A stretch of 64,000 bases of DNA from Pachysolen tannophilus NRRL Y-2460 (taxonomy: Eukaryota). How positions within the stretch are numbered: position 1 is the stretch's first letter; every line of letters starts with the position of its first letter. Below the pieces are notes generated by a model. The model was not told where the DNA came from. It saw only the letters and a list, made by a program, of their open reading frames with translations, and made no database searches. Shown one piece after another: positions 4,938-54,885 of this stretch. The position numbers were made by a program, and so were the translations under genes. Where the stretch lies: NCBI GenBank assembly GCA_001661245.1, contig KV454011.1:898426-962425 (forward strand). Direction: 5' to 3'.

Positions 4938-6256
4938 TTAGTGTTCGCCTCTCTTGCGTAATTGAGAGATGTGGTACAATGGATAAAACAGTTTTGTGGT
5001 GTCAACATCACAGATACTATTTTGTGAGATAGAATCTTGTAAATTTGCATCGGCTTCAGTGTTGGAAAATTGACCTGTTTGAGCATTTATTTTGAAAAAT
5101 TTTAATAATTTGTTGTTATCGTTATCGAACGATAAAATTAAATGGTCTCCTGTTAAATCTGATGTTATATCGACTATGCTATTGTCTGTTTCTAATAATT
5201 GATCGAAAACAATTTTCCCACTTTCTTCTAAATTAAGTATTAAAAGTGAATGATTTTTTTCTGTTAATACACATAATTTCAGGAAATCATTTTTTTTCAA
5301 TGCAATAATCTTAACCACATTTACTAGTTCTGTATCTTTGGATATGTATTCTTTGATGTCAAATCTGAAAAGTAAGCAGTCGTTGGAAGTTTCTTTGGAC
5401 CAATCCCAACTTCTAATGTACTCATCACCTCCCCCGCTTATCAATAAATCGGGTTTCCACCAAGGTATACATAATGATGAGACAAACTCCTCATGATCGA
5501 AAAGCCACTTATCAATCACATAGGAAAGAGGGAAATTTGTCACTCTTATATGTTCGTCTCTATCGGCAGTAATAATAAACTCTTTTTGATTTCCACCTTC
5601 TCTAGTACTGATTCCTATTACTGCATCGGTCAACATTGAAACATGACCTAAAATTGGTACCAAATCTTTTGTAGGAATGATTTCTTGTGAAGCAATTGGT
5701 AAAGAATAAGCATCTCCAAATTTGTCACCAACAATTATAAACTCATCGTTATAATTGGTAGAAATTGTACATGGTCTTTTAGGAAATGGTTGCCTCTTGA
5801 TCAATTTCAATGCTGGTGGTACTCTTTGATCATCTCCAGAACTGCCATCAAATAACGAAAATACAACTATGGCCTTATCTGAATCGGTGGTACCGATTAA
5901 ATACTGCTCATTTCTAGAAAGTTTTAAAGTCCTGATATAATTATATACAGTTGGAGCTCCCGCACCAGGTACTGGAATCTTGGGAATCTTATTCTTTTTT
6001 TTTTCTTTTTCTTTGGACCGTCACTCACCCCACCCTCATGAGTTTCTTCTATTTCTTTCTGTTGCTGTTCCAATTCCAACTGTTTGATCTTTTCCAGCTG
6101 CTGTTGTTTTAAAGTTATATCGACATCCACATCATCAGTCCATGTGCTCACTAGTTCACCTGTACAAGTCTTGAAAATTTGAATATGATTCTTCACTGAT
6201 GTGAAAAGGTACTCCCCCTTTTTATCCGTGACTATGATTTGAAATGGATGTTTCAT
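4938..6256 (-). CDS. TRM82: tRNA m7G46 methyltransferase WD40 subunit Trm82 (~439 aa); apparent -1 frameshift at A10 run 5995-6004
   Basis: N-terminus MKHPFQ; after a -1 shift the frame reads KIPVPGAGAPTVYNYIR...TTDSDK and continues into KRQPFPKRP, GDKFGDAY, LGHVSMLTD, ADRDEHIR, LRKRGEH. Joins ORFs 5924-6280 and 4938-5810. Confidence 0.88.
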
Positions 6257-6354
6257 GGCTGATATATAATCAAAGGACATATATATATATATATATAATA
6301 TAAATATTTTACGAAACAGTTTTTTTTTCGGTACTAAATCTTGTTAGTTTCTCT

Positions 6355-21798: not shown

Positions 21799-22439
21799 AA
21801 TTTCAACCTTATTTCCCCAGATTTTTCAACTAATATGCCTCTCTCAAATCTCGTGATACCCAACATTGCATTTCTCAATTTAAAAGGGTAATAAATATAA
21901 TTTACAAATATAAACTCCCTATCTATTAATCATAGACTTTAACGGTATTAAACATTCCAACTATCTTTTTGGCCCTTTGCCTCGATGGAAGTGTTAGCCG
22001 AAAAATTTCCTAATTGGGATGCCCTCGGAAATAATATCCCAAACTGGAAGCGCAGGTTTCTCTTGCTTAACTTCATTTTCAATTATTTTAAAGAATTTAA
22101 ACAACAATGATCCAATAGATGTTATAGTCTAGTTGTCTCTGGATGAAAACAATCAGCCCGCCCTGTACTGACAGAAGCACAAAGTCTAACATAAAACTGT
22201 TGTTGTTGATCTTTTTTTTCTTTGTATTTGGATTTGTATTTGTACTTGTCTTTTGGGTCAGATAATGACCCATTTTTAGAAGCTTCACTTTTTTTTTTGG
22301 GGCTTTGCCCGCAAAACGTAGTGCGCTTAGTGACCAAAAAGGGTCTCTCGATGATCCTAAGTAAAAATTGATATATTATAAAAATGTACGACGCTTTAAA
22401 ACACATGTTAATGATATATTGAATTATCATAAACATAGG

Positions 22440-25079
22440 ATGCAGTACGTTGGTAGGGCAATTGATTCTGTATCGAAGACATGGAGTTCAATAAATCCCG
22501 CGACTTTGTCCGGCGCCATTGATATAATGGTTATTCAGCAAGAAGATGGTATGTTTATTTTTAAAATGTATTTGTATCATTTTTATACAATTGTACTAAC
22601 TAACTATAATTTTTTGTTTCTTTTGTCTTTTTTAGGAGAGTTATCATGTTCTCCATTTCATGTAAGATTTGGAAAGTTTCAACTATTGCGGCCTTCTCAG
22701 AAGAAAGTTGAAGTTTGGGTGAATGAAGAGAAAACAAATCTTCCGATGAAACTAGGCGATGGAGGAGAGGCTTTTTTCGTTTTTGAGACAGACGCTGATA
22801 TACCACAACATTTGCAAACTTCACCGATTATATCGCCATCTAGTTCACCGTCGCCCCCTTCGTCGCCTCCTTCATCGAGATCGGGGAATGTGGTGGCGAA
22901 ATCTCATTCATCACCTGTCTTATTACAAGAGCCAGAGTTTTTAGATATTGGGCCAGGTGCTAATGAACTAGTGGGCAACAGCAATAATCATAATAATAAT
23001 AATAATATTAATAATAATAATACCAATAGTTCTAGTGTTAGCAGCTTAGTCTCCACTTCACCTCCATCTACTCCTTCATCAAATTTGGCCAAAAGACTTT
23101 CTTACCAACAAGCACAAAAGCTTTCTAGGAAATTGACAATTAAGAACATTCCATCAAAGATTGATCCAAATGGTGATATTTTTTTAGATATGCATGGTTA
23201 TAAAAGTAATAATAAAGCGGTTCATGACTCTGATGCTATTATTAGACAGTTGTTGAAAGATGAGTTTGGTGATAATATAGATATTAGTAATTTAGTCAGA
23301 GAAGATAAAGAAGGAAATATAACTATCAATAGTAGGGAAGATATTTTAAATGATAGTAATTCAAGCTCTTCTTTAAATTCTTCAACAAATACTACTACTA
23401 CTACTAATACTACAACAACAACAGCAACAAATTCATTACAAAACTTATCGTTATCCCCTCCTCCTCCTCCTCCTCCTCCTCTAAGTCCATCATCAACAAC
23501 ATCGTCTCTATTGTTAAACTCATCTTCCGATGAAGAAGACACAAATTCAACAAACAACTGCAATTTTTTCAAAACATTAAGACTTACGTCAGAACAGTTG
23601 AAATGTTTAAATTTGAAACATGGTGAAAATTCTATACGATTCAGCGTTAACAAGGGTAAATCTGTGATCACATGTAAACTTTATCTTTGGATGTACAATG
23701 TTCCCATAGTTATATCCGACATTGATGGTACAATTACTAAATCAGATGCTTTGGGACATGTCTTAACCATACTTGGAAGAGATTGGACCCATGAAGGTGT
23801 TTCGAAATTATTTAGCGATATTCATGCAAATGGTTATAACATTTTATATTTGACTGCAAGATCAGCAGGGCTAGCAGATTCTACAAGGTGGTATTTAAGA
23901 AATGTAGATCAAGATGGTGTCAAGCTTCCTCATGGGCCTGTTATTTTATCACCTGACAGAACAATGGCTGCTTTAAGAAGAGAAGTAATATTGAAAAAGC
24001 CAGAAGTTTTTAAAATGTCTTGTTTAAAAGATATCAAATCCTTATACGAAAATGGGTCATTTAATTCTAATAAAGAAAAACCTGCATTATATAACAATGT
24101 TAACAATATGCGTACACCGTTTTATGCAGGTTTTGGTAATAGAATTACTGATGCACTTTCTTATAGATCGGTGGGGATTCCTTCTTCTCGTATCTTTACC
24201 ATTAACCCAGATGGTGATGTTCATACCGAATTATTGGAGCTTGCTGGTTACAAATCATCTTATTTACATATAAATGAATTAGTGGATCATTTTTTTCCTC
24301 CAGTGAGGATAAACAGAATGGCAGATCCTACTCATCTAATGATAAACAATGATGAAAATTTTACAGATGTTAATTTTTGGAGGGAACCAGTTATGAATTT
24401 GAGTGACTTTAGCAGCGACGAAGAAGAGGAAGTAGATGGAGATTTGAGAGAAGACACTAAAAAATCTGCATCATCTGTCGAAAATGGTACTGAAGAAGAT
24501 AGCAGTAGTGGGACAGGAACAACATCAACTACGACAACAACTAATACCATATCTACCGCTACTAATACGAGTACCGCTACATCTTCAGCTGCCACAAACG
24601 AGGGTCAAAATGTACAAGAAACACCTAGAAGATCTAGTAAAAGTGGGTTGAGAGACTATGTCACTTCTCCTTCAACTCCTTCTAAACCTCCAAAACAGAA
24701 TTTCGCCAAAAGTAATAACACTCTTAGTTCAGATCTGAATAGTGTAATCGGATCGGAATCTGATGAATATACAGATGAAGATGAAGATAACGATTACGAA
24801 GAGGATGATGAATCGCAGATAATCTATGAAGATGAAGAAGACGAGGATGATGAGGATTACACCACAGAAGAAGACGAGTACACTGATGAAGAAGCTTTTG
24901 AATATGATGATGAAGAGGAGGAAGATTTGGTAAATGGAGATTCAAATGTTGAAGAAGCTGTTGGTGGTGCTAATCATTCAGAACCAAGTAATGGTGGTTT
25001 GGAACATGACCATGTCGATTTCAAGAGACACAGCTCCAAAAATGGAAATAAGGAAAGTAGCATAGCTCAAGATTCGTGA
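22440..25079 (+). CDS. PAH1: Lipin / phosphatidate phosphatase Pah1; exons 22440-22548 and 22636-25079 (~850 aa)
   Basis: MQYVGRA...NPATLSGAID, CSPFHVRFGK, catalytic DIDGT, GFGNRITD; acidic tail. Confidence 0.95.
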   Translation: MQYVGRAIDSVSKTWSSINPATLSGAIDIMVIQQEDGMFIFKMYLYHFYTIVLTNYNFLFLLSFLGELSCSPFHVRFGKFQLLRPSQKKVEVWVNEEKTNLPMKLGDGGEAFFVFETDADIPQHLQTSPIISPSSSPSPPSSPPSSRSGNVVAKSHSSPVLLQEPEFLDIGPGANELVGNSNNHNNNNNINNNNTNSSSVSSLVSTSPPSTPSSNLAKRLSYQQAQKLSRKLTIKNIPSKIDPNGDIFLDMHGYKSNNKAVHDSDAIIRQLLKDEFGDNIDISNLVREDKEGNITINSREDILNDSNSSSSLNSSTNTTTTTNTTTTTATNSLQNLSLSPPPPPPPPLSPSSTTSSLLLNSSSDEEDTNSTNNCNFFKTLRLTSEQLKCLNLKHGENSIRFSVNKGKSVITCKLYLWMYNVPIVISDIDGTITKSDALGHVLTILGRDWTHEGVSKLFSDIHANGYNILYLTARSAGLADSTRWYLRNVDQDGVKLPHGPVILSPDRTMAALRREVILKKPEVFKMSCLKDIKSLYENGSFNSNKEKPALYNNVNNMRTPFYAGFGNRITDALSYRSVGIPSSRIFTINPDGDVHTELLELAGYKSSYLHINELVDHFFPPVRINRMADPTHLMINNDENFTDVNFWREPVMNLSDFSSDEEEEVDGDLREDTKKSASSVENGTEEDSSSGTGTTSTTTTTNTISTATNTSTATSSAATNEGQNVQETPRRSSKSGLRDYVTSPSTPSKPPKQNFAKSNNTLSSDLNSVIGSESDEYTDEDEDNDYEEDDESQIIYEDEEDEDDEDYTTEEDEYTDEEAFEYDDEEEEDLVNGDSNVEEAVGGANHSEPSNGGLEHDHVDFKRHSSKNGNKESSIAQDS
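22549..22635 (+). other. Spliceosomal intron in PAH1 (87 nt)
   Basis: GTATGT donor, TACTAAC branch point, pyrimidine tract, TTTAG acceptor; removal restores QEDGELSCSPF. Confidence 0.92.
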
Positions 25080-36856: not shown

Positions 36857-38716
36857 CTATGGGAAAGGATTTGTAGTATTACCAATTGCTTGGCAATATC
36901 CCTTGGCATCCCCAACAGCACATTCATTTAGAAACATATTTTTCTCACTAATGCGGGTTCTATCATCACCTTCATCTATGTAGTCGATATTATTTGCCAA
37001 GATTTTTAGAATATTTTTATAGAAGCCTCTTACATGCAATACTATGACATTACTATCTGCTTCGGAGAATGTTATTCCCATATAATCGTCTTTTATGCAC
37101 AGTGTATCTCCACAAAGTTTAGCTTCATTTTCATTCAGTTGATCTTCTGTGAGAAAATCCCAATAGGCAATACTGTTTGGTATTAAGACGCTAATACCTC
37201 CATCACATATATTGTTTGCTTCTGTATTCCATGGTAAAACATCTATATTGAAATCCATTAAACTACTAACGTATTCTATCTGGAAGAAATCGTTATTCAT
37301 ATTTTTGGAAAAAATTAAGAAATGTGGTCTATAAGCTGTAGACACACATCCACATTCATCATTATGTGATCTTGGAAATCCTAACCAATATTGTCTATCT
37401 AAAGTATCAATTCTCATATTTTTAGGGAAAAATTTTTGAGGAATTTCAACTAAATTTGTTCCACCTCTCATACTACCAACAGTATTATTATCAATTTCTT
37501 CAGTAACAAAAATCTTATTACAAATACCATCACTTAATGAACATTTAACAACTAATAAAGGATCTAAATTATAAACAAATCCAATATGAGTTTGTTGATC
37601 AACAGAATCAAAAAATGGAACCCAATTTTTTTCAACACCTTTAACTTCAGAATTTGCTACCCGTAATAATAAAAAATTTGAATCTTCATCTGAAAAAGGT
37701 TTGAAAACATGCATACCACGTTTATCTTCAATATCTTTATTGACCATATTGAAAACAACAATTGGTTCTTGATCATCTTCACCTTGAGAATTTTTAAAAT
37801 TACGTACAAGAATTCTAGGATCTTCTGGACCCATATAACGATTTCTTGCATAAATTGGAACTTTTAAAATCATTGGAAAATTTAATGATAATCTTCTTCC
37901 ATTATTATTTACATTTAACCTATAATTTTGTAATTCATTCCAATTTCTATCAAATAATTGAACATAACCTAAACTAATAGTTGGTTTACTTTTTACACCA
38001 ACTCTTGAATATATGACTCTACTAACCATTAAATGAACTTTATATTTTGCAAGCCAAACACTACTACCTCCAAAAACCCACCATTTTCTTGTAATTATTT
38101 CATCTTCAGTTAATGGAATAAAATTTTCATGTTCTATAAGATCATCTTCTTCAGTATATTCATGTTCATCTTGTTCTTCTTCTTCACTTGAAACTGGATT
38201 TTTCTCTCCTAAAAAGCAATATTTGACCATTGGGTATTCTTCTCTCATTGTAGAAATTAATTGTCTAATTGAATGTAAATCTTGTTCAAATACTGTCTTG
38301 GGTGTAACTTCCAAATGACTTTGAATTTCAATATCTTCACATAATGACATCAATTGCAGCTCTAAAGTTGGTGGTATCCTAAGGTTTCTTCTATCTCTTG
38401 ATTTAAAACCATAACCATGGAAATCATAACCAGTATAATTATTTATTAATACTGGAATACTTATAGGTGAACTTGGAGAAATTCTACTAAAATCAACAAA
38501 TGCCAACTTATAATGATTCAAATTGTCCACAAGAAAAGAATAATTTAATAATACTATGGATATTGTCACAAGATAAACATTCAATAATTTTCTATATTTC
38601 TTTAACGTTGAACCACTAACAAATCTTGCCAATATATTAGAAAAATTAATCAAGTATATTAATAGGGCCACCAATGGCAGGACAACTGCTAGCTTGTATA
38701 AAAATGGACTGTCCAT
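36857..38716 (-). CDS. Beta-1,2-mannosyltransferase (Bmt/GT91/DUF3589 family), intact paralogue A
   Basis: N-terminal TM anchor; WWVFGGSSVWL..HLMVSRVIY, GPEDPRIL, EPIVVFNM, EKNWVPFF, MRGGTNL, CGC..YRPH, SVLIPNSIAYWD, DYMGITFSEAD. Confidence 0.9.
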   Translation of the reverse strand: MDSPFLYKLAVVLPLVALLIYLINFSNILARFVSGSTLKKYRKLLNVYLVTISIVLLNYSFLVDNLNHYKLAFVDFSRISPSSPISIPVLINNYTGYDFHGYGFKSRDRRNLRIPPTLELQLMSLCEDIEIQSHLEVTPKTVFEQDLHSIRQLISTMREEYPMVKYCFLGEKNPVSSEEEEQDEHEYTEEDDLIEHENFIPLTEDEIITRKWWVFGGSSVWLAKYKVHLMVSRVIYSRVGVKSKPTISLGYVQLFDRNWNELQNYRLNVNNNGRRLSLNFPMILKVPIYARNRYMGPEDPRILVRNFKNSQGEDDQEPIVVFNMVNKDIEDKRGMHVFKPFSDEDSNFLLLRVANSEVKGVEKNWVPFFDSVDQQTHIGFVYNLDPLLVVKCSLSDGICNKIFVTEEIDNNTVGSMRGGTNLVEIPQKFFPKNMRIDTLDRQYWLGFPRSHNDECGCVSTAYRPHFLIFSKNMNNDFFQIEYVSSLMDFNIDVLPWNTEANNICDGGISVLIPNSIAYWDFLTEDQLNENEAKLCGDTLCIKDDYMGITFSEADSNVIVLHVRGFYKNILKILANNIDYIDEGDDRTRISEKNMFLNECAVGDAKGYCQAIGNTTNPFP

Positions 38717-39757
38717 TGTGGAAGTTTCGTTTTTTTTTTCTTTTTTTTTGACTTTGACTTTGAAAGAGTTAATTGTGCTTGCTTATCACCTTATATCACT
38801 CAAATAAACATTCAACTTCCGAATCACTGTGTAACAATCAGTATAACTACTAATATAAATAACTATACATATATATACGTATGTATATATATATATTAGA
38901 TAATGGGTATATATATATGTATATATATATATATATAAATGAGCTTCAGAAGAGAAGATCAGAGAGTTATATAAGGGGTTTGATGTATACGTTATCAAAA
39001 TGAGTGGATTTTCTTTTTTTCTTTTTTTTTTTTTTTTTTTTTTTTATTGGCAAAAATTTCAAATTCAAATCAATGAAAGGAAATTTAATTTTAAAAACTA
39101 AATAAAATAAACTACATAATAATTTAACTAAAAAAAAATAAAAGAAACATGGGAACTTGCTTAAAATTTTAACTAAGTTCAATTCAATGTAGCTGGCACA
39201 GCTGTTTCAAAACCCTGATTAGACACAGCTAGGCGAAAATTAAAGTGAAATGCAAGATGTATGCACCTGCATATTATTGTGAAATTTTGGGACAGTTGCT
39301 GCAGAATGGTTTCTTTTTTAAAGGCTGCTGAATTGGCAATCTGCGGAAGTTTAAAATAAATAAAAAAAATTATTAAATAATTATTATTAGCTCAAGAATA
39401 AAAAAAATTTGATACTTTATACTTTTCGAAGAAGAAAGAAATAATAATTGGAGTTAACTTTTTTTTNTTTTTTTTTTTGGTTTTCCTGATCCGAATTGTA
39501 ATGGTTCGATATAAATTAGTAATGAATTTCCGTATGATTTAAAGGAAATTGTACTAATAATAATAATAGTAGTATTTCATGTATAAACGTGTAAGATCGC
39601 CCCTTTTTAGAAGATCCAGTGTCAATTTTAATTTGAAATTTCATCATATACACTCAAGGTGGAATCAGCCATCTTTTTGTAAACATTGTTTGTTGTAGTT
39701 ACAGTGTTATCATTGCTAATCATTATGTAGGGCGTTCGATGTATGTATAATACATCA

Positions 39758-40443
39758 ATTTCCTCGTTCTCATAATAAAGATTGTGGTTGTACTACAAAC
39801 ACTTATAGACCTCATTTTCTCATCTTATCCAAAGATTTAGAAACTGGAGTCTATCGCATTGAGTATCTTAGCAATTTAATGGATTTTAGAATTGATGTCT
39901 TGGCATGGGATATTGATAGAACAACTTGTGAAAGTCGTAAAAGTGTTTTGATCCCAAATAGCGTTGCTTACTGGGATTTCGTCAAGGATCAAAGAACTAA
40001 TGAGATTCAAGATGATTACATGGGAGTAACTTTTTCCGAAGCAGATAACAATGTAGTCTTGGTGCATATAAAGGGACTCTACAGTAACATTATTAAAATA
40101 TTAAGAAATAATAGTGACAGGGGCTCTTCTTCTTCTTCTTCTTCTTCTTCTACAAAATCAAAGAAAGAGGAGAAAAATGAAACTAGAAATTTAAATAAAA
40201 TGCAAGCATTGGCAACCAAAAAAAATAGTTTCTTAAATGGTTGTGCAGTTGCAAATGCAAAAGAGTATTGCGAGACACAGTTTCGATAAATTCCATTCAT
40301 ATAATATTTTTATTATTATTTTTATTATTATTATTTTTTTTTTTTCATTATTATTATTAAATAATTAGCTAAAGTAGATAATAGTAGAGTTAGTTTAATT
40401 TAGTTAATATAGAGAACAAATTTAAAAAGAAGAAAAAAATAAT
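39758..40443. other. 686-bp inversion splitting BMT paralogue B
   Basis: Ends ATT (39758-60) and AAT (40441-43); re-inversion gives YWIG|FPRSH and a 612-aa ORF. Confidence 0.88.
39759..40289 (+). pseudogene. Beta-1,2-mannosyltransferase paralogue B, C-terminal 176 aa, inverted relative to its N-terminal part
   Basis: Open frame from 39759 reads FPRSHNKDCGCTTNTYRPHFLIL...SVLIPNSVAYWD...DYMGVTFSEAD...CAVANAKEYC, collinear with paralogue A from FPRSH onward. Confidence 0.9.
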
Positions 40444-41750
40444 CCAATCCAATATTGTTTCTGTACAAGTTCAATGTTTACATTTGTTGGAAGATTTTCT
40501 TTATCAATTTCAATTAAATTTGTACCACCTCTCATGGCACCAATTTTTGATTTTTCTTCAATTTCTGTTTTTACCAGCAGTTTTTGTGATCCAGAATCTA
40601 ATTTATTTACTCTAATACAATTCCCATCTGCTAAAGAACATTTAAGAATTTCTAAAGGGTCCAAATTATAAACAAAACTTAAATGTGATTGCTGATCTTT
40701 TGAATCAAAAAATGGAACCCAATTTTTTTCAACAGGTTTAGGAGTTGAATTTTTAATTTTTAATAATAATAAACTAGAATTTCTTCTTTCTTCATCACTA
40801 ATTGCATCAAAAGGTTTAAAAATATGCATACCTCTCTTGCCATCAATTTCCTGATTAAGCATATTGAATACTACTATTGGTTCTTCCTCTGTACCACCAT
40901 CTGGAGTTCTATAAGTCCTGCTTAGAATCCTTGGGTCTTCAGGTCCCATTGTCTTTTCCATATCTGCCATTGGAACTTTTAAAATTTGTGGGAATTTCAT
41001 AACTGCACTATTTCTCTTTAAGATCATTGAAAAATTTTTTAATTCATTCCAATGATTATCAAATGCTTGTAAATATAATAAACTAATCACTGGGTTTGAT
41101 TTAACACCATCATTTGAGTATATGACTCGACTAACCATGAAATGTATTTGATAACGTGAAAGCCAAACACTTGAACCACCAAAAACCCACCATTTCCTAT
41201 TTAAAATATCTTGTTCACTTTCATTATCACCATCTTGGAAACATTTTTTCCCCTCTGGGTATTCACCATTAAGCAGCATTTTCTTTATTAAATCTCTAAT
41301 TTCTTTTAAATCTTGGTTAAATTCAGATTTTGGAGTAACTTTAATACCATTTTCTATTTGTAATTGCTCACAAGTCAATTCATCACCATTATTAGAAGAA
41401 ATAGATGATAAACTACTATCACCAAATGCAAAAGGTTTATAACCTTTAAACCCATAATCTGTATAATTTCCCAGAACAACATGTGAACTTATTGGAGAAT
41501 TTGGTCTAGTACAACCATAATTCACAACAGCTAATTTATATAAATTTTCTGCATTTAATAAGAGAGCACAATTAATAGAAATAGCAATAAGTGAAATTAC
41601 TGAAATATTCACCACTTTCTTATACCTCTTTAAATTAACCTCATTATGATGTCTACCAAAAAAATCTGTAAAATTTATAAAATAAAGTAAAAGAACAAGT
41701 ATTGGAATTGTAATGAAAAGTATATATTTAAGTGAAAAATCCATCATCAT
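40443..41750 (-). pseudogene. Beta-1,2-mannosyltransferase paralogue B, N-terminal 436 aa, truncated at YWIG by the inversion
   Basis: Same motifs as paralogue A up to QYWIG, then AT-rich non-homologous LFFSSF*. Confidence 0.9.
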
Positions 41751-43215
41751 TGACCCAAGGCAATTAGTTATACAAGAAAAAAAATAAAAAATAAAAAAAC
41801 TTTTTCTTTTTCTTTTTTAATAGTTTTCTTATACTTTTATAATATAAATCTTTAAATTATGTAAATGAATTTTAGTTTATCTCGTGTTAAGGTAAAGTAA
41901 ATTAACTTAATATTTATCGAGCAATTACAACTTTAAAGAAAGAAAGAAAGAACCCTATATTTCTTTTCTTTCTTACCAACACTACCAACACACTACAAAT
42001 ACTTACAAACACTGCATTCACTGCATTCACTATTACACTTAATCATTTACTCAATTTATTCAATTTACCTATTTTAATTTTTACAAACAAACTACGTAAT
42101 CAATATAGCAAAGGTTAAAAAATCTAGTACCTACTTATTTTCGTAAGGGGGCATTGCTTCGAAAAAAAAAAAAATGCATCACAGGAAGCACATTATTCAT
42201 TGAGTTTATGTCCGTTCACTCACAAATAGCTTGCACAGCTCACAGCTGAAATAGACTTTCTCTGCGGCTCGGAGCCCCTTTTTTATTTTTTTTTCTGTTT
42301 TCTCTCTTTTCAAAGAAAAGAGAGAGAAAAAAGACAGAAAAAAAGACAGAAATTATGACGGCCTAAAAATTTCCTTTTTTGGAATTCATTTGTACCCCAC
42401 CGGAAAAACCTCTAATAGTAGTAGTAGTATTCTTCCTCGCCTTGAGGTTGTATATATGTATCATTAGAAACATTGCTTATTATTGTCCTATCTTTTAATC
42501 GATCGGTTTTACTGATATAATTTAAATAAAGCTTAGAAAATGAAGAAATATTAGAAAATAAATATACTTGTATGGCTTGGTATTGTAAATCTATCATCAT
42601 CATCATCTTTGTAGTAGAAGATCATCATAATTTGAAATCAAAAAAAAAAAAATTTTATTTTTTTGTTTGATTTCGAACATCGTTTCATTTACAATTAGTT
42701 TCTTATCTCGAGGAAAATTGTATGGTAGATAGAAATCCAAGAGGTTAAAACTAAAGTTTGATCTATTTTCTAAGTCAAGGCGGAATGAAAATTAGAAAAA
42801 AAAATAGAAAACAAAAAGCGACTATCTATGATTTTGATCAAAAGTTAATTGAACTTGATATAAACTAGGGACTAAAAGCTAGTGCTTAGCTGAATTTATT
42901 CTTTTTATTTTTTTTTTTCTTTTTGATTTCCAATAGACGGTATGAAAGTCAAAGTCAAAGTCAAAGTCAAAAAAAAAAAAAAAAAAAAAATAAATCAAAA
43001 AAATGAAATTATTCTAGTTCCAACTATAGCGCTTAGCAACAAATTTATATCAATCGGCTTATACACACCCAACTCCATCATTTCGTTTCGTTTCGTCTCA
43101 TTTCGTCTCTTCTCGTCTCTTCTCGTCTTATTATTACATGTGTCACACTATACTTTTTAACAAGATCAAAAAAAAACACATTATAAAAGTAGTTCACAAA
43201 AACACCAACTTTTTG

Positions 43216-51543: not shown

Positions 51544-52123
51544 TTAAATGTAGAGCACCTTGGCCGCAATTCTCCTTGTGTTCAGGAGCATAAGCAGACA
51601 AAACAAGGTAAAAAAAAAAATTTTTTTTTTTTTTTTGATGCGATCGGTAAAATATTGAGCATCAAATCTATATTATTTATACTGGTTTTCAACCTATTAT
51701 AATCATTTAATATAGTTAATTAATTATACTTCAATCTTATTTATTTTTATTTTTAAAAGATAATAAGGAAGTGAAAAGATTATGATTACTTACTAGTATT
51801 TCTATTCTTTTTTTTTTTCCTCTTTCCCATAAACTTTTTACTTGACAATTATAATAATTTTTTTGTTACATTTTGCTAAGTTAGTTAGAAAAATAAGACA
51901 AGACACAATTAACTGTTATTAGAAAATTTTAAGCGGCGCTTAAGGAAATTTGTCCAAATTTATAATTTAATTGTGATTTGATTGAAGTTTTGTCTTTTAA
52001 CTTTCAACAGATGGTTATTTATCTAGATGAATATCGGAAAAAGACATCGGCGGTTAAACAAGAAAGCATTTATAGACGTTGTTGATAAAATAAATAAAAC
52101 AAACAAATATTGTACTGATCAAG

Positions 52124-54885
52124 ATGGCAACAAGTACTGAAACAAGTACTCCTAGTAGTGGCACTTTGGAAACTAGTACAACCACGAGTCAAATAACTAT
52201 TACAAATTTAAGAACTCAGTTATATGGTTTACTTAATAGTAAATATGTTGATGATTCGTTGTTATTGGGATCAATTACATTTGCACAAAATAAGTTTGAA
52301 AATTTCATAGCAAAAGATTTAGCATTACAAAAAGAGAATGAAGGAGAAGATAATGATTACGAATCGAATGAGTTGTTGGATAAGTTATGGGTAGAGTTTC
52401 ATTATCCAATAATAAAATATTTCCAGACACAGTTCCGTTATTTGGTTAGAACTGATCATAAAGAAAAAAAAATGTAGAATTAAGGAAATTATTCAATAAT
52501 TTCCATAAATTCATCAAAAAATTTAGTGATTTTTACATTTCATTACTAAATAAAATTTTAATTAATTATAACTTGTCTAAATGTTTACCTATTACCAAAA
52601 TATATAAACAATTTAACATTAATACAGAATTGATCTCAAAAAATTCACAAACTATACCACTGCAAAATTCAAATTTAATTTCAACATTAGTTTATTTCAT
52701 ACATAAATCAATCTTATCGTTAGCAGATTTGTCGAGATATAGGTCAATTATAGCGAGAACTTATTTACCATCATCATCATTATCTAAGAAAGATTTAGAT
52801 TTCAATTTTAATTATTCTGTTGAATTATACAAGTTGTGTATTTTAGTTTTACCCGCATTTGGTGAACCTTTTGTTCATACTGCTATCATTGATAATTTTA
52901 AAAATGATAAATTCAATGTAATTTATAATTTTTTAAGATCAACAATGACTAGAATACCATCTGATTTAGGATTTAACAATTTGATAAATATTTTACAAAA
53001 ATCTGATAATAATCAAAATTCTATAATTTTAGAATATAATGAAATTAGTACAATTGTTGATCCAGAAAAAATTAATAGATTGAAATTAATCAAGCTACAA
53101 TTTTTATGTCTTTTCAATTATTATTTTTTGCCTCTGGATTGGAAACTTTCACAAGGAATTTTAATTAATGGAGTTTCAGTTAAAGATTTGGAAAATGCTT
53201 TTTTCCAAAATTTATTAACTTGGGACTATATTGGGAAACCAGTTCATAATGATGTTATTTTCAAACAATTGATTATGCTTATAAGTGGGTTTAAATTATT
53301 AACGAGCAATATTTTTGATGATTCAAATAAAAAAATTGATCGATCATCAAATATCGCAAGTTTTTTCATAAAATTTATGTTTAAATTCTTTGATTGTATA
53401 TTCCAAATATCAATGGAAAATTGGAATGTAGATCAACAAACTGAGAAAATTGATTTACCATTTTTACCTATTTTGAGAATCATATTATGTTGGTTTAAAG
53501 AAAATAGAGCAGGTTTACAATTTTTAAAACATAATAATGTCACTTTAATCAAATTGTGCAAAGTTTTAAATTTATACTATCGTTATATGAATAAAAATAT
53601 CAATTTTTTCATTGATAAATTGGCTTTATATACATTTGATGATAAATTCACTTCAATAAGTGAGTTAATAAGTGTTAAACCCAAAAGATTGAGATTTTTC
53701 AAAGAAGATGTGTTATTGAAAGAATTTATTCCATTAACTAATTTTTTGAAAGATTTTGATGATGGTTCTTTTTTCAAAGATACTACAGAAATTAACTATT
53801 TAAAGCTAATTGGAGAATTACCTAAAGATGAATATGATAAGCACTTGTCTAATAAATCTGATGAAAATTGTTTAAGAATGTTGGCTATTAGTAATTTAGG
53901 TAAAAAAATTGTTCTTGCTGCAGCCAACGGAACTTCAAATGAATTCATCAAGTTCAATGAAAAGCTATGCTTATTTGAATTTCAAAAAGAAATGATTCAT
54001 GTTTCTAAATCTCTGAAATTGACGCTGCCTCGCGATGAAAATAAAAATGAAGATTCTGAGAGAAAGAGTGTAAGCAAATTAAACAACGATAGTAATAAAA
54101 ATAAGAAACTTAAAAAGAACAGTAAACAGGTCAAAGATAAGGATTATAATGATAAAAGTATTACATCTAAAACATCAGGAAACGGAAATTCGCAGAAATC
54201 CTTGTCCCTGGTTGGAGAAGTAACTGATACTTTGAATAATGGAACTAATGGAAGAATCGACTATATAAATAAAAATAGAGTAATGACTGTGGAAGAGATT
54301 GAAAAAGAGCATGAAATAGAAGAAAACGAAAAGGTTGCAAGAATGGTGAGTAGCATATTGGATTTCGCTGATGAAGATGAAGTTTTTAACCTGTTGAACA
54401 AAGGTGGAAACAATTCTAGTATCAATACAAAAGACATCGCTAGTACTTTGTCTGCCACTTCTTCGAATATCATTAAAGATGGTGGTAACAGTTCTTTATC
54501 TGCGACTCCTACCAGTTTACATCAACTGCAATTTTCTCAAGCATTCTCAGATGATTACCAACAACAGTTGCTGCAATACTATCGTTGGTTATCCAACGGA
54601 CAGCAGCAGCAATTATTACCAGCATTTCAGGCAAACCCAAACATGCAATTTACACCTCAGAAGACGATATCTCAACAACTTGATATTGGATCTAGCGCTA
54701 GTAATTTAGCAAGCCAGTATTCCCAATATGGAAACCTTCAGCAGAACAACAATGCAACAAATCTTCAGCAAAATTATCTAAATAGCAATAATATTCAGTC
54801 GGGGGTTTCTCAAAACCAGTATCATCAGTATCATAATTATCATCAATATGACACTCAAACTGGGAATAATGGCTCCCGTTTTTAA
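52124..54885 (+). CDS. EBS1: Ebs1/Est1 (SMG7-like 14-3-3/TPR) protein (~920 aa); apparent -1 frameshift at A9 run 52464-52472
   Basis: LLDKLWVEFHYPIIKYF, then after a -1 shift NVELRKL...FY, LADLSRYR, LPAFGEPF, YNFLRS, FKEDVLLKEF; Q/N tail; convergent with UME6 as in S. cerevisiae. Confidence 0.78.

What the first reader, a model, noticed from the sequence alone, without database searches (positions are those of the whole stretch)
39758..41750. Beta-mannosyltransferase gene split by a 686-bp inversion; flipping restores YWIG|FPRSH exactly
The minus-strand half ends TAT TGG ATT GGA at 40443, and the plus-strand half starts TTT CCT CGT TCT CAT at 39759. The intact neighbour reads QYWLGFPRSH here. 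Inverting 39758-40443 (ATT/AAT ends) yields 436+176 = 612 aa, against 619 aa for the paralogue. It also makes a head-to-tail tandem pair and carries the AT-rich 3' region along. As assembled, the product lacks the C-terminal region (CGC..YRPH, DYMG..SEAD) and its transcript would run antisense through its own 3' half. An ambiguous base at 39467 shows local assembly uncertainty.
Basis: seen in the sequence. Interest (0 to 1): 0.8.

Follow-up and report, generated by a model that had tools for sequence, protein, structure and literature searches.

The report
Assembly flip splits intact mannosyltransferase gene
The yeast gene looks cut in two by a flipped 686-base block, but independent sequencing data of the same yeast carry the block the other way round with the gene whole, so this is an error in the reference assembly and not biology.

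Summary
In the window, a beta-mannosyltransferase (Pfam BMT, PF12141) gene is split. Codons 1-436 lie on the minus strand (41750..40443) and codons 437-612 on the plus strand (39759..40286). The break falls exactly between profile positions 347 and 348, and between residues 446 and 447 of the intact 619-aa neighbour. Flipping 39758-40443 gives one 612-codon frame.

The flip is not in the organism's reads. Logan contigs of 4 of 4 public runs (2 samples, 2 studies) were laid on the locus. All join 39757 to 40443 and 39758 to 40444 on opposite strands, which is the intact-gene arrangement. No listed contig runs straight across either assembled junction. The same four runs also correct two homopolymer lengths nearby. 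Only 3 bp of inverted homology flank the block, and no recombinase family was found among 30 of the window's 42 long frames scanned.

The window matches Pachysolen tannophilus NRRL Y-2460 (CUG = Ala), a non-pathogenic yeast. Earlier notes of this scan list other base-perfect 0.5-1.1 kb flips in this genome, which suggests a recurrent assembly error.

Verdict: mis-oriented piece in a draft assembly. The 441-aa protein model in the searched collection is truncated. Low interest.

The parts
40443..41750 (-). BMT-B, codons 1-436 (N-terminal hydrophobic anchor and the first 347 positions of the BMT profile). Correctly oriented in the assembly.
   Evidence: contig pieces of all 4 runs cover 40444-41750 colinearly
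39759..40289 (+). BMT-B, codons 437-612 plus the stop. In the assembly these lie on the wrong strand. They hold the CGC..YRPH and DYMG..SEAD motifs and a poly-Ser tract.
39758..40443 (.). Mis-oriented block of 680-686 bp (3-bp ATT/AAT ambiguity at the ends). It comprises the C-terminal coding part and the AT-rich 3' flank (40290-40442).
   Evidence: limits, table 5: opposite-strand joints 39757|40443 and 39758|40444 (or 39760|40440 and 39761|40441) in 4 of 4 runs
36857..38716 (-). BMT-A, the intact 619-aa tandem paralogue used as the ruler.
   Evidence: identical to P0005 when CTG is read as Ala
39467..39467 (.). Single ambiguous base (N) inside a T-run. It is the only N in the window.
42161..42174 (.). 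A-run that is one A longer in all 4 runs than in the assembly (intergenic).
   Evidence: table 4
42285..42294 (.). T-run that is one T longer in all 4 runs than in the assembly (intergenic).
   Evidence: table 4

Best explanation
The 680-686-bp block 39758-40443 is placed in the wrong orientation in this draft assembly. In the organism (Pachysolen tannophilus NRRL Y-2460 or a near-identical strain), the gene is one uninterrupted minus-strand frame of 612 codons. It is the second member of a head-to-tail tandem pair of beta-mannosyltransferase (Pfam BMT, PF12141) genes. Shown: the split geometry, the perfect restoration on flipping, and that read-derived contigs of two samples carry only the restored form. 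Inferred: that the error arose during assembly, scaffolding or finishing, for example a small piece inserted the wrong way round. The method used for this assembly could not be read. Also inferred: that the protein is a Golgi type II membrane enzyme adding beta-1,2-linked mannose to wall mannan, as its family name says.
For:: Logan contigs of 4 of 4 runs were laid (X1, X4, X5 = sample S1, study P1; X3 = sample S2, study P2). Each run shows both flipped junctions as 'opposite strands' joints, with 75-78 and 255 letters on the shorter side and a 3-letter ambiguity. For example, X1 record 1 covers 39468-39757(+) then 40443-40366(-). X1 record 2 covers 40298-39758(-) then 40444-40731(+). Both have 0 other letters. 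These contigs have word depths of 113-150 in X1, 55-125 in X3, 111-182 in X4 and 10.7-13.3 in X5. The flanking contig has 163, 114, 163 and 14.5. None of the 32 listed pieces crosses 39757/39758 or 40443/40444 on one strand. All 4 runs also differ from the assembly in two homopolymer lengths (behind 42161 and 42285) and nowhere else over 2.9 kb, so the assembly carries local errors; the flip gives a 612-codon frame, 0 of 20000 shuffles keep the C-half open, and only 3 bp of inverted complementarity flank the block; no residue is lost or gained at the joint. The two halves are equally diverged from the paralogue (44% and 46%), so the orphaned half shows no decay. (leads only, not tested here): earlier notes on the same genome report other base-perfect 0.5-1.1 kb flips splitting REG1, RPS22/snR44, ADE2 and a zinc-finger regulator.
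Against: All four runs are kept as contigs, not raw reads. Contigs drop rare variants, so a minority of cells with the assembled orientation cannot be excluded. 25 further contig pieces were not shown. The kind of three runs is not on record. I cannot show that S1 is the sample the assembly was made from, so a private inversion in the DNA stock used for the assembly is not formally excluded. The block's ends do not lie in obvious repeats, and the assembly method could not be read (paper not held). How the error arose is therefore unexplained.
Confidence: 0.92

Rival explanations
1. A real, very recent two-break inversion with end joining on 3-bp microhomology, fixed in the particular culture used for the assembly. 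It inactivates one of several BMT paralogues.
For: The block is base-perfect and both halves are undecayed, which also fits a very young lesion. A family with at least 4 paralogues (P0004-P0007) could tolerate the loss of one. The ends do not lie in repeats, so an assembler's reason to break there is not obvious.
Against: Contigs of 4 of 4 runs from 2 samples show only the intact form, and they are otherwise letter-identical to the window. The assembly shows other errors nearby. Earlier notes list similar flips in genes such as RPS22 and ADE2 in the same assembly (untested here). As a set, these are hard to credit as real lesions in one viable strain.
Confidence: 0.04
2. Both orientations coexist in the culture as subclonal heterogeneity, and the assembler happened to take the rarer one.
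For: Contigs cannot show absence of a rare form (caveat in the tool text).
Against: The contigs run straight through both flipped junctions in all 4 runs. They do not break there, as they would at a well-covered branch. An assembler would not normally prefer a rare form.
Confidence: 0.03
3. A programmed invertible switch (phase variation of a wall-mannan enzyme), comparable to the flip-flop mating-type inversion reported for this yeast.
For: Inversion-based MAT switching is reported for P. tannophilus (PMC5499181 passage). BMT enzymes shape surface antigens in other yeasts (recalled).
Against: Only 3 bp of inverted complementarity lie at the ends. None of the 25 longest inverted-repeat pairs (of 905 found) has its arms at the two breakpoints. 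No recombinase or transposase family was found among the 30 of 42 long frames scanned. Only one orientation is seen in 4 of 4 runs.
Confidence: 0.005

Closest known systems
Small mis-oriented pieces (local inversions) in draft scaffold assemblies
   Same: A base-perfect flip of a sub-kilobase block with nothing lost or gained. It is unsupported by read-derived contigs and sits in a scaffold-level assembly with contig N50 in the 10^4 bin (PMC13232491 passages). Small inversions inside scaffolds, and read pairs of wrong orientation, are described error sources in scaffolding (PMC6550390 passage; 10.1101/025650 abstract passage).
   Different: The junctions here carry no gap of Ns and are not in evident repeats. 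The cited papers describe Hi-C and mate-pair causes. Which data and software produced this flip is not known to me.
Beta-mannosyltransferase family (Pfam PF12141 BMT); BMT1-9 of Candida albicans and BMT1-4 of Komagataella (names recalled; BMT1 and BMT4 labels seen)
   Same: Full coverage of the 486-position profile once the halves are read in order (1-347 and 348-486). The CGC..YRP and DY..SEAD motifs are conserved with 6 homologues. There is an N-terminal hydrophobic stretch, and the gene has several paralogues, two of them in tandem.
   Different: Only 24-41% identical to the non-Pachysolen homologues and 44-49% to its neighbour. Its acceptor and linkage specificity are unknown. It carries a poly-Ser/Lys-rich insert near the C-terminus.
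Flip-flop mating-type inversion of methylotrophic yeasts, including P. tannophilus
   Same: A DNA inversion in the same species (PMC5499181 passage).
   Different: [quoted passage not shown] Here the block is 0.7 kb with 3-bp ends and a single orientation in the reads.

Membership tests
Assembly mis-orientation artefact | Assembled junctions are not supported by independent read-derived sequence. | tested here: met
   none of the 32 listed contig pieces of 4 runs crosses 39757/39758 or 40443/40444 on one strand (25 further pieces not shown).
Assembly mis-orientation artefact | The alternative (flipped) junctions are present in reads of the same or an identical strain. | tested here: met
   tables 5 and 8: both flipped joints in 4 of 4 runs (2 samples, 2 studies), with 0 other letters.
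Assembly mis-orientation artefact | Other assembly-level errors occur in the neighbourhood. | tested here: met
   table 4: two homopolymer lengths differ in all 4 runs. N at 39467.
Assembly mis-orientation artefact | A known cause in the assembly procedure. | not testable with these tools
   The genome paper is not held, and raw reads are not available for these runs.
Pfam BMT (PF12141) beta-mannosyltransferases | Profile match above the gathering score. | tested here: met
   206 bits (N-half) and 118.6 bits (C-half) against a cut-off of 28.3.
Pfam BMT (PF12141) beta-mannosyltransferases | Complete domain, colinear with family members. | tested here: met
   profile 1-347 plus 348-486; adjacent columns 593/594; 612-codon frame after the flip.
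Pfam BMT (PF12141) beta-mannosyltransferases | Beta-1,2-mannosyl transfer activity. | not testable with these tools
The function is inferred from the family name only.
Programmed DNA-inversion switch | Inverted repeats (crossover sites) at both ends of the invertible block. | tested here: not met
   complementarity stops after 3 bp; none of the 25 longest inverted pairs (of 905) sits at the breakpoints.
Programmed DNA-inversion switch | Both orientations present in a population. | tested here: not met
   only the flipped form is seen in the contigs of 4 of 4 runs. Contigs cannot exclude a rare form.
Programmed DNA-inversion switch | A recombinase encoded nearby. | tested here: not met
   30 of the window's 42 frames of 110 codons or more were scanned against Pfam at E<=1e-5. 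No recombinase, integrase or transposase family was found. The 12 left out were 3 BMT pieces already scanned and 9 frames lying inside or antisense to longer ones.

The most novel reading that the evidence does not exclude
The assembled orientation is real in a minority of cells or in one laboratory stock: a spontaneous, microhomology-joined 0.7-kb inversion that knocks out one tandem BMT paralogue. If the other small flips noted in this genome were real too, the strain would have an unusual propensity for sub-kilobase inversions.
Probability: 0.04. Interest if true: 0.35.

Novelty: not a real feature. Interest (0 to 1): 0.08.

Why it matters
It does not matter as biology. It matters as curation. 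The protein collection searched holds only a truncated 441-aa model for this gene and no intact 612-aa form (of 15 hits, only the window's own P0004 is more than 44% identical). Any count or phylogeny of BMT genes, or any pseudogene call, in this CUG-Ala yeast inherits the error. Earlier notes of this scan list similar flips in REG1, RPS22/snR44, ADE2 and a regulator in the same genome. Together these point to a recurrent error class in this reference. It can be cleared in one pass with the read test used here, rather than being re-discovered as 'split genes', 'trans-splicing' or 'switches'.

Tried and rejected
- Whole genome of the window: none is held. The other flips reported in this genome could therefore not be examined.
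- RNA evidence: no RNA holder is listed for the stretch. Nothing can be said on expression.
- A hole in contig cover at 40299-40365 and 40118-40162 lies in low-complexity repeats that the tool skips. It is not a finding.
- Genome paper of the assembly (Riley et al. 2016): not held by DOI or PMC id. A paper on assembler evaluation that I recalled is also not held. The assembly method and the cause of the flip stay unknown.
- Literature on BMT genes in this yeast: search 'Pachysolen' + 'beta-mannosyltransferase' gave 0 papers.
- Notes near the finding: none. A word search across other genomes gave only loosely related cases.
- Table 12 (CUG = Ser) was used first and then dropped. The stored models read CTG as Ala, which fits the published CUG-Ala code of Pachysolen (PMC4937558 passages). 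The four CTG codons of the N-half do not touch the junction.
- Search for further opposite-strand split genes in the window: none among the 30 frames scanned.

Full report
**What is in the sequence**

The window holds two neighbouring genes of the beta-mannosyltransferase family (Pfam BMT, PF12141).
- The first, at 38716..36860 on the minus strand, is intact at 619 aa.
- The second starts at 41750 on the minus strand and reads normally for 436 codons up to ...QKQYWIG (GGA ends at 40443). It then runs into 6 unrelated codons and a stop, giving 442 aa as assembled.
- The missing end of the second gene lies 684 bases to the left, on the plus strand. From 39759 it reads FPRSHNKDCGC..YRPH..DYMGVTFSEAD.. 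for 176 codons to a stop at 40287-40289.

**How exact the split is**

- Against the intact neighbour, the N-half aligns to residues 1-446 (44% identity, E 9e-125). The C-half aligns to 447-610 (46%, E 2e-55).
- Pfam places profile positions 1-347 in the N-half and 348-486 in the C-half.
- In an alignment with six homologues, the N-half ends in column 593 and the C-half begins in column 594.
- Nothing is missing or duplicated at the break.
- The block can be drawn anywhere from 39758-40443 (686 bp) to 39761-40440 (680 bp), because ATT at the left end is the reverse complement of AAT at the right end.
- Beyond those 3 bp the ends are not complementary.
- None of the 25 longest of 905 inverted-repeat pairs in 38700-42500 sits at the breakpoints.
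- Flipping the block in a script gives one open frame of 612 codons.
- None of 20000 shuffles of the C-half stays open in frame.

**Which organism**

- A protein search returned the window's own truncated model (P0004, 441 aa) and the neighbour (P0005), both on a contig of 2,514,465 bases.
- It also returned paralogues named for Pachysolen tannophilus NRRL Y-2460 (P0006 on a contig of that same length, P0007 on another).
- The stored models read CTG as alanine. This is the published code of this yeast (PMC4937558, passages read).
- A paper's table lists a scaffold-level assembly of this strain of 12.60 Mb, with longest scaffold 2.51 Mb and contig N50 in the 10^4 bin (PMC13232491, passages read).
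- This is a non-pathogenic, xylose-fermenting yeast (recalled).

**The decisive test**

Five public runs hold 96% of the sampled words of 39470-41800. Four are from one sample and one is from another sample and study. I laid four of them on 39468-42400: X1, X4 and X5 of sample S1, and X3 of sample S2. All are kept as Logan contigs.
- In every one of the four, the contigs join the flanks to the block the other way round.
- For example, X1 record 1 runs 39468-39757 on the plus strand and continues with 40443-40366 on the minus strand.
- X1 record 2 runs 40298-39758 on the minus strand and continues with 40444-40731 on the plus strand.
- Table 5 lists these 'opposite strands' joints for both ends in 4 of 4 runs, with 75-78 and 255 letters on the shorter side and the expected 3-letter ambiguity.
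- The pieces show 0 other letters.
- Their word depths are of the same order as the flanking single-copy contig.
- None of the 32 listed pieces crosses either assembled junction on one strand. 25 more pieces were not shown.

Read on the minus strand, record 2 is the intact gene across ...TGG ATT GGA | TTT CCT CGT...

The same four runs agree with each other against the assembly at two further places. One extra A follows 42161 and one extra T follows 42285, both in homopolymer runs. They differ nowhere else over 2.9 kb. The assembly, not the organism, is the odd one out.

**Why not a switch or a real lesion**

- A programmed switch needs crossover repeats, a recombinase and both orientations.
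- Here there are 3 bp of complementarity.
- No recombinase family was found among the 30 of 42 long frames scanned. The 12 left out were the three BMT pieces, already scanned, and nine frames inside or antisense to longer ones.
- Only one orientation appears in the reads.
- A real fixed inversion in the sequenced stock, or a rare subclone, cannot be formally excluded. Contigs drop rare variants, and I cannot show that S1 is the assembly's source.
- It would have to be absent from both samples examined.

**Context from this scan**

Notes on the same genome report other base-perfect flips of about 0.5-1.1 kb. They split REG1, RPS22 with its intronic snR44, ADE2 and a zinc-finger regulator. One of those notes says its flip seems missing from independent data. 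They are leads only. Even so, a set of such flips in essential or selectable genes of one viable strain fits a recurrent assembly error better than biology. Small inversions inside scaffolds, and read pairs of wrong orientation, are described error sources of scaffolding (PMC6550390 passage; 10.1101/025650 abstract passage). Which step made this one is unknown, since the genome paper is not held.

**What the gene is**

Read in the right order, it is a 612-aa member of the BMT family. It has an N-terminal hydrophobic stretch, the conserved CGC..YRP and DY..SEAD motifs and a Ser/Lys-rich insert near the C-terminus. It sits head-to-tail with a 45%-identical paralogue, and the strain has at least two more paralogues. 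By family name, it adds beta-linked mannose to wall mannan. Its specificity is not known.

**Verdict**

The one useful outcome is a correction. The only model of this gene in the protein collection searched is truncated (of 15 hits, none but the window's own 441-aa model exceeds 44% identity). This reference likely holds more such flips.

Noticed in passing
window 42161-42174 and 42285-42294: All 4 runs laid carry one more A and one more T than the assembly in two intergenic homopolymer runs. These are under-called homopolymers in the reference.
   Followed up: yes
window 52094-54882 (+), frame change at 52462-52474: An Est1-like gene (Pfam EST1 and EST1_DNA_bind) is spread over two overlapping frames that switch inside an A9 run. 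Given the homopolymer errors seen nearby, this may be a one-base assembly error and not a real frameshift or intron. It was not tested with reads.
   Followed up: partly
window 4941-6343 (-): Two consecutive long frames (5927-6343 and 4941-6020) overlap and have no Pfam match at E<=1e-5. This may be one gene with an intron or a frameshift.
   Followed up: no
same genome, outside the window (notes e1-7827360, e1-7827375/76, e1-7897124, e1-7897263): Earlier notes list other base-perfect 0.5-1.1 kb flips splitting REG1, RPS22/snR44, a zinc-finger regulator and ADE2. Together with this case they suggest a recurrent mis-orientation error in this assembly.
   Followed up: no
window 39568: In runs X1 and X4, a short contig end diverges from the assembly inside an AAT/AGT-rich microsatellite (16-18 loose letters). 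This is probably a graph tip at low-complexity sequence.
   Followed up: no
window 22365-25076 (+): The lipin/Ned1 homologue shows its Lipin_N domain in two stretches, with a hydrophobic, intron-like insert near the 5' end of the frame. This is most likely an ordinary intron.
   Followed up: no
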